From NCBI GenBank assembly GCA_963801605.1, contig CAWDFP010000006.1, positions 1,504,001 to 1,568,000 of the forward strand: a stretch of 64,000 nucleotides of DNA. The letters run 5' to 3'. Below are positions 50,153 to 53,600 of this stretch, piece after piece. The notes below the pieces were generated by a model, which saw only the letters and a program-made list of their open reading frames with translations, did no database searches and was not told the origin of the DNA. Origin of the DNA: an uncultured candidate division Zixibacteria bacterium (lineage in GTDB: Bacteria > Zixibacteria > MSB-5A5 > UBA10806). The translations under genes and the position numbers were made by a program. Each line of letters starts with the position of its first letter. The first letter of the stretch is position 1.

Positions 50153-50297
50153 CATTGCGAGGTCGCTTCGACCGTGGCAAACTAAGTCTATTGTAGGTCA
50201 AGACTGAGCTTTACCCGATAAATTGGGTGTCATAATTTATTATGACCCCAATTTGTTTGTGGTGTCGGGTCCCCGAACCCGACACATACAGCGGTCA
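50153..50297. repeat. REP-like cluster including ~74-bp composite unit (50224-50297)
   Basis: TGGGTGTCATAATTTATTATGACCCCAA plus GTGTCGGGTCCCCGAACCCGACAC, repeated at 51029-51101. Confidence 0.8.
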
Positions 50298-50759
50298 ACT
50301 ATCCTTTTTTGATTCTAAATGCGATAGAATCCTCAGCATCAGCTCATTCTGATTTTCGAGGTGCAGCAGGATCGCCTCGATTTCTCGTTCTGCTTTCACG
50401 TTTACCTCAAAATCGGTCTCGGCCCGGATTTCCGCGTGACGTCCCTGTAAATTCTGGCCAATCATTATCAGCGGCATCAGGAAAATCTGTAACATATTGG
50501 ATATAAACAGCCAGAGTACAAACGCCGGGAACGGGTCGAATCGCAGCCCTTGAGGCGCTAACGTGTTCCAGCCCAGCCAGAGTGCGGTCCAGGCGAAAAT
50601 CACAAAGAAAAATCCCATTGTGCCGATATGCTCGGTGACGACCAGCGAGAATTTCTCAAGTCTGGTGAGAGTCTCCTGATGCGCGATATTGGCGTTCTTT
50701 ATGGGCGTACGCAGTTTGATTAGTTCCGCATGTGACAGCCTCTGCGGTTTGGTATCCAT
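50295..50759 (-). CDS. DUF1003-family membrane protein
   Basis: FDPFP..PLIMIGQN.Q..DFEVN.KAE; GGAGGAG SD before the ATG at 50759. Confidence 0.85.
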   Translation of the reverse strand: MDTKPQRLSHAELIKLRTPIKNANIAHQETLTRLEKFSLVVTEHIGTMGFFFVIFAWTALWLGWNTLAPQGLRFDPFPAFVLWLFISNMLQIFLMPLIMIGQNLQGRHAEIRAETDFEVNVKAEREIEAILLHLENQNELMLRILSHLESKKDS

Positions 50760-50909
50760 TTCTCCTCCAGCGATTAGGCGGCAATCCAAGCAAGCGTTAT
50801 CAATCATTTCAGATATTGTGATTCATTACTTAAGATATAGATTGCCATATTGCAACCGCTTTTTGACAGGCCGCCGCACCCGCCCTACCCGTGGACACTC
50901 CGTGTGCCG

Positions 50910-51124
50910 TTGTTCGTGGTGACGGGTCCCCGAACCCGACACATACAGCAGTAGGTCAGGTGCCCCGGCACCTGACAAACAGGTAAAAAGAGTCAGGTCG
51001 CAGGCGACCTGACCTACGTAGGCTAAACTGGGTGTCATAATTTATTATGACCCCAATTGTTCGTGCTGTCGGGTCTCCGTACCCGACACCTATAGTGGTC
51101 AGGTTCGGGGACCTAACCGCACAG
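50910..51124. repeat. Dense REP-like cluster (inverted doublets)
   Basis: GTAGGTCAGG..CCTGAC 50951-50976 facing GTCAGG..CCTGACCTAC 50992-51017; composite unit 51029-51101; GGTCAGGTTCGGGGACCTAACCGCACAG 51097-51124. Confidence 0.82.
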
Positions 51125-51140
51125 AATTAAGTTTATTTAA

Positions 51141-53218
51141 TTATTTCTGCTTAGTAAAGAGCGCCTTTAGAGGCTGGACTAGGATTAATCTTTCCTTTTC
51201 GTTCGTTATGAAACGAAATAATATAGATACTCCAATAAATATGGCCGTAAAATATTCCCAGAAATTTGCGGCTTTCTGAAGCAAATTACTTCCTTCAGCA
51301 TAAATATTTGTAATATACAGCATTAATAATTCTATAATAATTAATAATGTAATAGAAAATGCCAATTTATTTTGGCCTGAACGTTTAGAATCTTCGTATT
51401 CTTGCTTTGTTTCCAAATCCTTTAACTTTTGATTAAGATGATCGATTTCAGATCCCTTAATATTAATTTGTTCTTGTAACTTGTTCTCTCGTGATGAAAA
51501 TTCTACCGCTGCTTCTCCTAGGAGCTTTTCATAATAGGCCCTAATTTCTGATTTTTCGCCTTCTAACTTTAATATATCTTGCTTATACTGCCTATCAGAA
51601 CTTGCAAAAAACTTAGAAACTTCATACATGAGTTTTTCTCGATCCCTTGGATCGTGGGGATTCAACTTAGGCGCTTTCGTTTTAATATATTTTATACATT
51701 GCTCTACATCCTTTGCGGGCAAATTTTTACAGGTCATATGCATATCGTGAAAGATTTCAAAATCCTCCAGCACAAAAAATCTATCTTGGGGTAACAATTT
51801 AAATTTTAGTAATTCCGAAAATATTGCCGATACTTCGCAGTCGTCTTCGTCCGGTAGGAAGAGCGGAGATACCCATTGAATGAAGGTATCAAGGCTCAGC
51901 GCAGGAGAAGTTTCTAATGAGTTGATTAAAACTCCTGTTAAAGAAGTATCTGCCGTTATTACCCAAGCATTGCCCTTGATACTCTTTTTAAATTTAGCTG
52001 CCCAAAGCAATAGTTTGGAATCATGAATTGCACTTCCGCTCCTTTTTGGGAAATTTCCCTAATTGGAAATTTCGATGCTGCAAGACTGCCGCGAACTTTT
52101 TTATTTCATTAGATTTATCAGCATCTATAAACCATTTGTCATCATCCAACTCAATTGCACAGCCATTTTTAAGAATTTCCATTGGGTTTTCAAAATTTTT
52201 AAATAAATCTTCAATTTCAGGTTGTTCACCTTTTTCGATTTTCGATAAATAAATTTCGTAAAAAAGGGATCTTATTTCTTTTGATAATTCTTTGGGTATT
52301 TGATCTAAAGCATTAATTAAAAGAGTCCGCTGATGTTGTATCCATCCCCTTAGTTCATCCAATGAAATTTGGCATATTTTTATTTTAATTCCTAACTGCT
52401 TGCAGGCTTTAGCAAAAAGGCAATAACTATAATAATTCCGGTGGGTAGGTTCTAGTGCAGAAATTATAATATTTGTATCTAGATATAATGTTGATTTCTG
52501 GAATATTTCTTTAGAAATTAAATCGGTAGCTGAATCCATGCCAATTATTTTTGATACGAAATAATTTTGCGCGATTCTCCATTTTAATTCGTCATATGCC
52601 GGATCTACGGTTTCAAAAAATAGCAAAACTGCTTTTTCCAATATTTTAATGTCTATCAATTCATATTTAACTTTAACCTTTTCCAAGGCAGATTGGATCA
52701 AGGCCATTCCCACTAATTGATTTTTATTTATTTCTCCTGTAATTAGGTACGCACTATCTTCTCCTAATTTACTAAAAATATGGCAGATACTTAAAAGAAA
52801 TGGTTCATTATATGAATAATGATTTTCTACTGACTCTCCAAATAATCGTTTAACCACCCCATTCAAGTGGGTTTCTGCTTGATGCTCTATTGCTGTAATT
52901 TGGGTCCTTCTCTGTTCTGTCAATCGATATGCTTTGTTCCCATTAAGCGACTGGGGCGCTATGCAATTCTTGGCGACAAGTCTGTCAACTACCAGCTTAA
53001 TGGTCATTTGATCGATGTGATATCCTCCGGTTTGTTTCGCGAATTCCTTTTTGCATTTCAACAATATCAATCGGATTTGGATTAGCTAAAGCAAAAAGGA
53101 TATGTTCTATAGCTCTTTCTAAAGCAGTTTCCTTGATAGCTTGCGTTTCGGGAGAAAATCTGAATTTGGTTGATAAAAGCATTGCCTTTGTTTTGTCATT
53201 TTCAGATGAAGGGGGCAT
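51141..53218 (-). CDS. ~690-aa PIN-domain protein with putative N-terminal winged helix, coiled coil and two C-terminal TM helices (two poly-A frameshifts near 53060 and 52045)
   Basis: Removing one A from each of two A-runs joins three ORFs; PIN motifs LYLDTNII, E, AIHD, WVITAD; hydrophobic C-terminus; AT-rich. Confidence 0.75.
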
Positions 53219-53316
53219 TTAAACCTCAAATAAAAATTAATTTTATTTACAAATAAACACAAATTTATTCTTAAGCAAGATGCGATAAAAGAAATAATCC
53301 CCCCATTATGCCATAT

Positions 53317-53345
53317 ATTATTGGATAATTGAAAAGTCGTGTCAA
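53317..53345 (-). promoter_or_regulatory. Probable sigma70 promoter of the PIN gene
   Basis: Minus strand TTGACA-17 nt-AATAAT; GAGG SD before the ATG. Confidence 0.5.
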
Positions 53346-53426
53346 GCAATTTCTTTGCTTATAATAATCATTATGGCGCAAAAATAATACCCTTCGCCAA
53401 GAAAACAAGTACTGAATAAACCGGCA

Positions 53427-53456
53427 GCGGTCAGGTTCGGAGACCTGACCGCACAG
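53427..53456. repeat. REP-like element, direct repeat of 51097-51124
   Basis: GGTCAGGTTCGGAGACCTGACCGCACAG, 26/28 identical. Confidence 0.8.
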
Positions 53457-53600
53457 TTAGGCATAGGATACATGATTATCTCGGTCCAATGGACTTCGGA
53501 AAGAATGCCACCCCATGCAATAGGGGCGAGGGATTCGAACCCCCTCGCCTTCCCACAAACCCCTTGACTTACCCGCCCCAAATCTTTATCTATCCACGTT

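What the first reader, a model, noticed from the sequence alone, without database searches (positions are those of the whole stretch)
51141..53345. AT-rich standalone wHTH-PIN-coiled-coil-2TM gene: candidate undescribed anti-phage effector
Seen: three minus-strand ORFs merge into one ~690-aa protein after removing one A from each of two A-runs. It has PIN-like acidic motifs (LYLDTNII, AIHD, VITAD), an N-terminal segment resembling a winged helix (VVDRLVAKNCI..AYRLT), a coiled-coil stretch and two terminal hydrophobic helices. Two sampled 60-nt lines are about 12% and 25% GC versus about 50% in core genes. It has its own promoter and no adjacent antitoxin. Known: PIN domains are RNases; large single-gene nuclease-plus-TM proteins are frequent in defence islands. 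Inference: horizontally acquired membrane-anchored RNase, plausibly abortive infection.
Basis: partly seen in the sequence, partly recalled or inferred. Interest (0 to 1): 0.7.

Follow-up and report, generated by a model that had tools for sequence, protein, structure and literature searches.

The report
Membrane-anchored PIN nuclease, likely anti-phage
One gene, split here by two probable sequencing errors, encodes a predicted membrane-anchored RNA-cutting enzyme of an unnamed family that is scattered across bacteria and archaea, sits repeatedly beside known defence genes, and likely protects cells against viruses.

Summary
The three ORFs are one 691-residue gene. Intact 616-706 aa homologs switch frame at the two A5 runs, and neighbouring core genes carry frameshifts at a rate predicting 1.9 here, so assembly errors are likely.

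Models of homologs give a PadR/MarR-like winged helix, a VapC-type PIN domain (Z 11.4) within a compact helical core (pTM 0.90), a long coiled coil and two C-terminal membrane helices. The four PIN acidic residues are 96-100% conserved in 163 sequences.

The family is large (435 clusters at E≤1e-30), unnamed, patchy and has no conserved partner gene. It lies within 6.5 kb of defence genes in 12 of 53 contexts; DNA methyltransferases are about 20-fold above genome average. In 10 of 53 contexts it abuts attC-like sites, which suggests integron cassettes. The window copy itself has neither feature, only REP repeats.

Best reading: a standalone, self-restrained, membrane-tethered RNase acting in anti-phage defence. 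The defence role is about 70% likely; the abortive RNA-cleavage mechanism about 50%. It works like DS-3 and Cosus but has an architecture I did not find described. Activity, trigger and substrate are untested.

The parts
51141..53218 (-). Single gene, 691 aa when read through: wHTH - helical domain - PIN with helical insert - helical domain - coiled coil - two membrane helices
53317..53345 (-). Sigma-70-like promoter consensus (11 of 12), 99 nt upstream of the ATG; function not shown
53223..53227 (-). Shine-Dalgarno-like site before the ATG at 53218
   Evidence: sequence
53048..53052 (-). A5 run, first frame break (one extra base relative to homologs; probable assembly error)
52043..52047 (-). 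A5 run, second frame break, on the lysine conserved in all 162 full-length homologs
52918..53143 (-). Winged helix-turn-helix, residues about 26-100 (PadR/MarR-like fold)
   Evidence: model of homolog P0001; 5h20_A Z 11.7, rmsd 3.7, 98 aligned
52513..52917 (-). Conserved helical domain, residues about 101-235, part of the compact core
51882..52491 (-). PIN (VapC-type) domain, residues about 243-445, with a roughly 70-residue helical insert; acidic tetrad D247 (52479), E288 (52356), D399 (52022), D423 (51950)
   Evidence: 5x3t_B Z 11.4, rmsd 3.2, 136 of 137 aligned; conservation 163, 157, 163, 163 of 163
51597..51842 (-). Conserved helical domain, residues about 459-540, part of the compact core
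51372..51596 (-). Long helix, predicted coiled-coil stalk, residues about 541-615
   Evidence: continuous helix 542-643 in the model
51309..51365 (-). Predicted membrane helix 1 (residues about 618-636)
   Evidence: hydropathy 2.36
51207..51263 (-). Predicted membrane helix 2 (residues about 652-670), weaker
   Evidence: hydropathy 1.56; two C-terminal peaks in 118 of 162 homologs
53426..53456 (.). REP-like palindrome upstream of the gene
50991..51124 (.). Cluster of REP-like palindromes downstream; the hairpin at 51014-50991 also fits a terminator pattern
53524..53544 (-). 21-nt exact copy of the 3' part of tRNA-Ser(TGA); possible integration scar, unexplained

Best explanation
This is one gene for a predicted membrane-anchored PIN ribonuclease that likely acts as a standalone anti-phage effector, held inactive until infection and then likely cutting cellular RNA to stop translation. 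Shown: one reading frame broken at two A runs; a conserved PIN acidic tetrad; a family with no conserved partner gene; patchy, mobile occurrence; repeated placement beside restriction-modification, Argonaute, OLD, SIR2 and helicase defence genes. Predicted from models of homologs: winged helix, PIN within a compact helical core, coiled-coil stalk, two membrane helices with the bulk of the protein in the cytoplasm. Inferred: the helical domains and insert around the PIN replace the missing antitoxin by self-inhibition. A phage cue, sensed either at the membrane hairpin and passed down the stalk or by the winged helix binding nucleic acid, would release the active site. Metal-dependent cleavage of tRNA, rRNA or mRNA, as in VapC toxins, would then arrest the infected cell (abortive infection or dormancy). 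Defence role of any kind about 0.7; this mechanism about 0.5.
For: Fold: the top 12 of 48,161 chains for the core model are all PIN/VapC-type proteins (model pLDDT 92, pTM 0.90); winged helix. Active site: D247, E288, D399, D423 in 163, 157, 163, 163 of 163 rows. Standalone: no recurring neighbour family among 285 ORFs from 51 loci. Defence context: 11 of 51 loci within 6.5 kb, 7 of the 15 with at least 8 kb of flank; 12 of 53 after adding two contexts first merged as duplicates. Examples: L017 pAgo-gene-OLD in tandem; L003 SIR2-like, gene, Mokosh-A-like helicase; L032 type I RM upstream with a ZacA match downstream; L019 type II RM, a TrlF/Ppl-like ATPase and two TIR-like genes. PF01555 plus PF00145 methyltransferases: 9 genes in 7 loci in 310 kb against 0.41 expected from 71 matches in 53.1 Mb of 13 carrier genomes. 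Defence-adjacent loci occur in several separate branches of the tree. Mobility: found in 1 of 60 relatives, as a fragment, and 0 of 400 other genomes of G062's class; GC below flanks in 29 of 34 loci; attC-like sites abut the gene in 10 of 53 contexts; L017 and L019 share DNA exactly between the cassette ends. Precedent: standalone PIN anti-phage proteins DS-3 (PMC13092281, passages) and Cosus (10.1101/2024.07.02.601719, abstract and passages), both weakened or abolished by PIN mutations.
Against: 41 of 53 contexts show no recognised defence gene, many being housekeeping neighbourhoods (16 of the 51 had under 2 kb of flank). The window copy has no defence neighbour among those checked and no attC-like site, and it branches outside the cassette clade. 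The enrichment control is the genome average, not other mobile genes; 10 of 51 loci carry transposases, integrases or conjugation genes, so part of the signal is general island bias. No PADLOC or NCBIfam defence model matches convincingly. Self-inhibition, the trigger, oligomer state and substrate rest on analogy; model coordinates could not be inspected. All folds are of homologs about 40% identical, not of the window protein.
Confidence: 0.5

Rival explanations
1. It defends without killing the host: tethered at the membrane, it destroys incoming phage nucleic acid or early phage transcripts at the entry site, with the winged helix holding the substrate.
For: Membrane anchor plus nucleic-acid-binding fold plus nuclease in one chain. 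For the PIN12 system Cosus, a T7 escape mutation mapped to tail protein gp12, which the authors link to genome injection (10.1101/2024.07.02.601719, passage).
Against: The closest folds are VapC RNases, whose known targets are tRNA and rRNA (PMC13092281 passage for tRNA; rRNA from the 5wz4 entry title). No helicase or ATPase partner is conserved.
Confidence: 0.18
2. It is a self-regulated stress or selfish toxin unrelated to phage: a cassette-borne dormancy or addiction gene that accumulates in islands alongside restriction systems.
For: VapC-type fold; a PadR/MarR-like domain could regulate it; mobile contexts in 10 of 51 loci and cassette ends in 10 of 53; most contexts lack recognised defence genes.
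Against: No antitoxin gene, which addiction normally needs (general knowledge). No conserved palindromic operator upstream of 42 genes (best motif in 3 loci against 1-2 in shuffles). Tandem placement between pAgo and OLD, and between SIR2-like and helicase genes.
Confidence: 0.2
3. It is a housekeeping membrane-tethered RNase for RNA turnover, analogous to RNase Y (anchor, coiled coil, RNA-binding domain, nuclease; recalled).
For: Similar parts in reverse order (recalled comparison); several copies lie between housekeeping genes (L002, L004, L024, L054, L055, L059).
Against: Not found in 59 of 60 relatives searched and 400 of 400 other genomes of another class; no conserved synteny; GC below the host.
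Confidence: 0.04
4. Whatever the family does, the window copy is a true pseudogene and both frameshifts are real.
For: Accessory genes decay often (general knowledge); L010 is also split and L013 appears truncated next to a transposase; no reads could be laid.
Against: 8 of 19 conserved genes in the same 23 kb carry 13 frame switches (0.9 per kb, 1.9 expected in this gene), against none in 15 genes elsewhere. Both breaks are single extra bases in homopolymers, there is no in-frame stop and all catalytic residues are intact.
Confidence: 0.08

Closest known systems
DS-3 (PIN8), single-gene PIN anti-phage system of E. coli (PMC13092281; passages and supplementary table rows seen)
   Same: One protein, PIN ribonuclease split by intervening sequence, no antitoxin, proposed to be auto-inhibited until infection.
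   Different: About 340 aa (1,023-nt CDS) with the first catalytic aspartate at residue 7, so no N-terminal winged helix; the passages seen describe no coiled coil or membrane helices. Sequence relationship not tested: its record was not in the collections.
Cosus (Brc24), PIN12-domain integron cassette (10.1101/2024.07.02.601719; abstract and passages seen)
   Same: Single-gene PIN system borne as an integron cassette; 17 of 40 members of this family match Pfam PIN_12 weakly.
   Different: PIN starts at the N terminus (T12, D14); the passages seen mention no winged helix or membrane anchor; PIN_12 match here is weak (best E 4e-6) and absent for the window pieces.
VapC toxins of VapBC systems (PDB 5x3t, 5wz4, 3zvk, 2fe1)
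   Same: PIN core fold and D-E-D-D tetrad (tetrad definition from a passage of PMC12065111).
   Different: VapC is about 130 aa, soluble and paired with VapB; this protein is about 690 aa with an insert, flanking helical domains and a membrane anchor, and has no partner gene.
Agp (TPR-GreA/B-PIN) of the Bab/Agp system (10.1101/2024.11.07.622273; passages)
   Same: Large multidomain protein with a PIN nuclease acting in phage defence.
   Different: 1,094 aa, TPR and GreA/B sensors, needs the partner Bab; no such domains or partner here.
RNase Y (recalled, no call)
   Same: Membrane anchor, coiled coil, nucleic-acid-binding domain and nuclease in one chain.
   Different: HD nuclease and KH domain, N-terminal anchor, conserved housekeeping gene; not homologous.

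Membership tests
PIN-domain superfamily (VapC-like) | PIN alpha/beta fold | tested here: met
   Models of homologs P0001 and L017: 5x3t_B Z 10.4 and 11.4, rmsd 3.1-3.2, 136 of 137 residues. Foldseek listed PIN proteins at ranks 2-5 but with E above 0.001.
PIN-domain superfamily (VapC-like) | Acidic catalytic tetrad D-E-D-D at canonical positions | tested here: met
   D247, E288, D399, D423 in 163, 157, 163, 163 of 163 rows; positions follow strand 1, helix after strand 2, helix before strand 4, and after strand 4.
PIN-domain superfamily (VapC-like) | Metal-dependent nuclease activity | not testable with these tools
   Needs an assay.
VapBC toxin-antitoxin systems | Small stand-alone toxin of about 130 aa | tested here: not met
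   691 aa; homologs 616-706 aa.
VapBC toxin-antitoxin systems | Adjacent, co-transcribed antitoxin gene | tested here: not met
   None in the window; no recurring neighbour among 285 ORFs of at least 100 aa in 51 loci. ORFs under 90-100 aa were not scanned in the homolog loci.
PIN_12 (PF16289) / Cosus type | Pfam PIN_12 match above the curated cut-off | tested here: inconclusive
   17 of 40 members at E up to 0.01, best 4.4e-6, bit scores not shown; none for the window pieces. No direct comparison with Brc24.
DS-3 | About 340-aa protein beginning with the PIN domain | tested here: not met
   PIN begins at residue 243 of 691 against D7 in DS-3.
DS-3 | Sequence homology | not tested
   Record not in the collections.
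Named systems in PADLOC 2.0.0 / NCBIfam 20.0 | Significant full-length profile match | tested here: not met
   Best PADLOC E 1.3e-5 in 2 of 40 members; best NCBIfam E 0.0011 in 1 of 40; window pieces best E 7e-4. DefenseFinder was not available.
Integron gene cassette (family members) | attC-like site after the gene and complementary core sites at the two cassette ends | tested here: met
   Ends 10 of 10 complementary in L019 and L029, 9 in L031, 8 in L026; bottom-strand folds z -1.3 to -7.3 for 5 sites; a model trained on 7 sites found 8 further sites in L003, L023, L026, L029, L060.
Integron gene cassette (family members) | Integron integrase nearby | tested here: inconclusive
   None recognised among the flanking ORFs scanned; flanks were at most 10 kb.
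Integron gene cassette (window copy) | attC-like site flanking the gene | tested here: not met
   No match of model R1 in the 64-kb window at E up to 0.05; the model is narrow (7 training sites).
PadR/MarR winged-helix regulators | Winged-helix fold | tested here: met
   5h20_A Z 11.7, 5x11_A Z 11.0, 5h3r_A Z 10.6 rmsd 1.9.
PadR/MarR winged-helix regulators | Binding to a palindromic operator upstream of its own gene | tested here: inconclusive
   No shared exact palindrome in 200 nt upstream of 42 genes; the test would miss degenerate sites.

The most novel reading that the evidence does not exclude
A one-protein membrane-to-RNase relay: the membrane hairpin with its conserved outer loop senses phage injection and signals through an 80-residue coiled coil to unlock a caged PIN RNase, and this module travels between bacteria and archaea as an integron cassette.
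Probability: 0.2. Interest if true: 0.72.

Novelty: new variant of a known kind. Interest (0 to 1): 0.52.

Why it matters
Standalone PIN anti-phage proteins have been validated only recently and how they stay off without an antitoxin is open. This family offers hundreds of intact, unnamed members with a confident core model, four fixed catalytic residues and separable parts (winged helix, core, stalk, anchor), so sensing and self-inhibition can be tested by simple deletions. It would add a membrane-tethered RNase architecture to the defence catalogue of uncultured sediment and subsurface bacteria and archaea, and it links that catalogue to integron-like cassettes. It is not a new kind of immunity, and function is so far inferred.

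Tried and rejected
Sequencing runs: none was listed, so the frameshifts could not be checked against reads.

Homodimer prediction of residues 232-689 of P0013: no verdict, score 0.14 against a mark of 0.42; not used for or against anything.

Sequence search of solved structures: nothing better than E 0.28. Foldseek on the full model: no match at E up to 0.001. The two helical domains flanking the PIN got no clear structural match but were not folded alone, so they are untested rather than new.

No relative was confirmed in viral contigs (44 candidate stretches), plasmids or phages (single-protein tblastn). The protein atlas gave only unnamed clusters; its nearest named family (MCU, 29% of members, score 0.85) was set aside as a probable chance match.

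A home-made attC heuristic missed the visible sites and gave scattered hits, so it was dropped (first half). No upstream operator was found. A simple empty site could not be shown: in the relatives examined the two flanking core genes are not adjacent. DUF1003 was rejected as a partner: it was not found beside any homolog and has a separate 94% copy elsewhere in the genome. DUF4238 (E 5e-5, below cut-off) and Tmemb_cc2 matches to the pieces were set aside.

Rows dropped before counts: L015 and L016 (short, 21-23% matches), L014 and L064 (23%), and 9 near-duplicate loci, of which L003 and L020 were later restored as distinct contexts.

Literature: ten searches returned no description of this architecture in the listings or in the passages read. 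The library lacks most subscription papers, bioRxiv supplements were not available, and the DefensePredictor supplementary PDF and Table S1 were too large to read; a prior description or prediction there cannot be excluded.

Full report
OBSERVATION. The minus strand of 51141-53218 holds three consecutive ORFs. A search with the middle piece, limited to long proteins, returned 40 proteins of 616-706 aa at 31-43% identity among 4,311 candidates. Read through with X at the breaks the protein has 691 residues and no stop. The gene is 34% GC in a 48.6% window, has a promoter-like site at 53345-53317 and no adjacent small ORF. Its neighbours are peptidyl-tRNA hydrolase, divergent, and a DUF1003 gene.

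ERROR OR DECAY. Orthologs from four relatives were laid on the genome. In the 23 kb around the gene, 8 of 19 conserved genes show 13 frame switches (0.9 per kb, so 1.9 expected in 2,078 nt); 15 genes elsewhere show none. A few of the 13 may be alignment artefacts. The broken genes are core metabolic ones (isocitrate and malate dehydrogenase, isopropylmalate dehydratase, succinyl-CoA ligase; names recalled from sequence). With no in-frame stop and every catalytic residue intact, assembly error is the likely cause. No reads were available to prove it.

ANATOMY. AlphaFold2 on homolog P0001 (pLDDT 77, pTM 0.54) gives a three-helix, two-strand unit at 26-100, helices to 225, an alpha/beta unit at 243-445, helices to 537, one long helix 542-643 and a last helix 657-682. 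Structural search matched the first unit to PadR/MarR winged helices (Z up to 11.7) and the alpha/beta unit to VapC (Z 10.4). A second model of residues about 100-545 of L017, with 150 sequences, reached pLDDT 92 and pTM 0.90, so these parts fold as one body. Its top 12 matches among 48,161 chains are all PIN/VapC-type proteins, the best 5x3t_B at Z 11.4, rmsd 3.2, 136 of 137 residues spread over 202 model residues, implying an insert of about 70. In 162 full-length homologs (of 188 held) plus the window protein, D247, D399 and D423 are invariant and E288 is kept in 157. Two C-terminal hydrophobic peaks occur in 118 of 162, one in 41, none in 2, three in 1. Basic residues flank the hairpin on both sides (5 before, 1 in the loop, 5 after), which suggests the enzyme lies in the cytoplasm and only a short conserved loop outside (inference). 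Pfam PIN_12 matches 17 of 40 members weakly; PADLOC, NCBIfam and PDB sequence searches give nothing convincing.

FAMILY. The profile finds 435 clusters (50% identity) at E up to 1e-30 and 853 at 1e-10 (only the best 150 were seen). Names given by sources are 'hypothetical', 'predicted nucleic acid-binding protein' or 'predicted transcriptional regulator'. Genome records include Aminicenantes, Dehalococcoidia, Anaerolineae, Desulfobacteraceae, Planctomycetota, Acidobacteriota, Zixibacteria and Thermoplasmata archaea. It was found in 1 of 60 relatives of the window's genome, as a contig-end fragment, and in none of 400 other genomes of G062's class. A Dehalococcoidia and a Desulfobacteraceae copy are 92% identical in DNA over 1,716 nt with unrelated flanks, pointing to recent transfer, with mis-binning as a caveat. 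The gene is poorer in GC than its flanks in 29 of 34 loci.

CONTEXT. For 51 non-redundant loci, 285 ORFs within 6.5 kb were scanned with Pfam and 148, chosen as unannotated or defence-like, with PADLOC. No neighbour family recurs as a partner. Eleven loci hold restriction-modification, Argonaute or OLD genes; among the 15 with at least 8 kb of flank, 7 do. L003, first merged as a duplicate, carries PDC-S09, SIR2-like and Mokosh-A-like matches; L020 lies among housekeeping genes, giving 12 of 53. Two methyltransferase families occur as 9 genes in 7 loci over 310 kb, against 0.41 expected from 13 carrier genomes. This control does not correct for the general tendency of mobile genes to gather in islands, the E-value scales of the two searches differ, and 41 of 53 contexts show no recognised defence gene.

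CASSETTES. The flanks of several homologs resemble integron attC sites. The two ends of the unit are perfectly complementary over 10 nt in L019 and L029. Four of five sites fold better than shuffles at z below -2. A model built from 7 sites found 8 more in L003, L023, L026, L029 and L060 and none in the window or in seven regions of relatives (63 sources, 728 kb). L017 and L019 share DNA exactly from one cassette end to the other. Such sites abut the gene in 10 of 53 contexts, nine of them in one clade. No integron integrase was recognised nearby. Integron cassettes are a documented store of phage-defence genes (10.1101/2024.07.02.601719, abstract; PMC13434031, one passage).

THE WINDOW COPY. 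It is a long branch outside that clade, 26-41% identical to the other loci. It lies where two core gene blocks meet that are not adjacent in the relatives examined, between REP-like palindromes with about 30 copies in the genome, and 180 nt beyond its promoter is a 21-nt piece of tRNA-Ser. It has no defence neighbour among those checked. Earlier AI notes call the genome Zixibacteria and describe its REP repeats (not verified here beyond the repeat count).

MECHANISM. Shown: one gene, intact PIN tetrad, no partner, mobile, enriched beside defence genes. Predicted: domain order and membrane anchor. Inferred: a latent RNase whose own helical domains stand in for the antitoxin, released by a phage cue at the membrane or at the winged helix, then cutting RNA and halting translation. 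I put any defence role at about 0.7 and this mechanism at 0.5. Rivals are destruction of incoming phage nucleic acid at the membrane (0.18), a phage-independent selfish or stress toxin (0.2) and a housekeeping RNase (0.04). Separately, the window copy may be dead (0.08).

COMPARISON AND VERDICT. It belongs to the PIN superfamily by fold and active site, is not a VapBC system, and is not a member of any PADLOC 2.0.0 family. It works like DS-3 (PMC13092281) and Cosus (10.1101/2024.07.02.601719), which are single-gene PIN systems, but adds a winged helix, a coiled-coil stalk and a membrane hairpin. Ten literature searches and passage reads of ten papers showed no description of this arrangement, within the limits of the library. 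New variant of a known kind; interest 0.52.

Noticed in passing
window 53524-53544 (-): Exact 21-nt copy of the 3' part of tRNA-Ser(TGA), whose gene lies 58 kb away on the opposite strand (G000 C6:1615967-1616051); the only other copy in the genome. May be an integration scar displaced by inversion, or a chance REP-like hairpin.
   Followed up: partly
window 50224-50866 and G000 C13:29-673: The DUF1003 gene with its flanking REP repeats has a 94% identical copy on another contig, as if a REP-bounded unit had moved.
   Followed up: no
G000, REP-like repeats genome-wide: 7 of 50 one-kb flanks of REP copies are under 40% GC against 3% of random windows; two are this gene and two are one site counted twice. 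One Y1 transposase gene is at C6:524629. Y1 transposase genes also lie just downstream of homologs L010 and L013.
   Followed up: partly
G000 C6:1,541,000-1,564,000 (window about 37000-60000): Locally error-rich stretch of the assembly: 8 of 19 conserved genes frameshifted against 0 of 15 elsewhere; other split-gene findings in this window should be treated with care.
   Followed up: yes
L017:7697-14104: Long prokaryotic Argonaute, this gene and an OLD-family nuclease in tandem, with an attC-like site between the first two.
   Followed up: partly
L003:7393-15840: PDC-S09-like gene, SIR2-like gene, this gene and a 1,184-aa Mokosh-A-like helicase bounded by attC-like sites on both sides.
   Followed up: partly
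L019:722-21351: Island with TIR-like genes, type II RM and Vsr, a coupling protein, RadC, a TrlF/Ppl-like ATPase and a serine recombinase around the cassette.
   Followed up: partly
L014:3714-8054 and L064:1001-3217: Longer, distant relatives (799 and 739 codons, 23% identity); in L014 the gene follows a LmuA-like gene (Lamassu, PADLOC E 5e-16) by 13 nt.
   Followed up: no
L009:1736-11593, L030:3469-6152, L048:4687-8439: Large neighbouring ORFs (666-1,251 aa) with no match in the libraries scanned; possible further undescribed genes of these islands.
   Followed up: no
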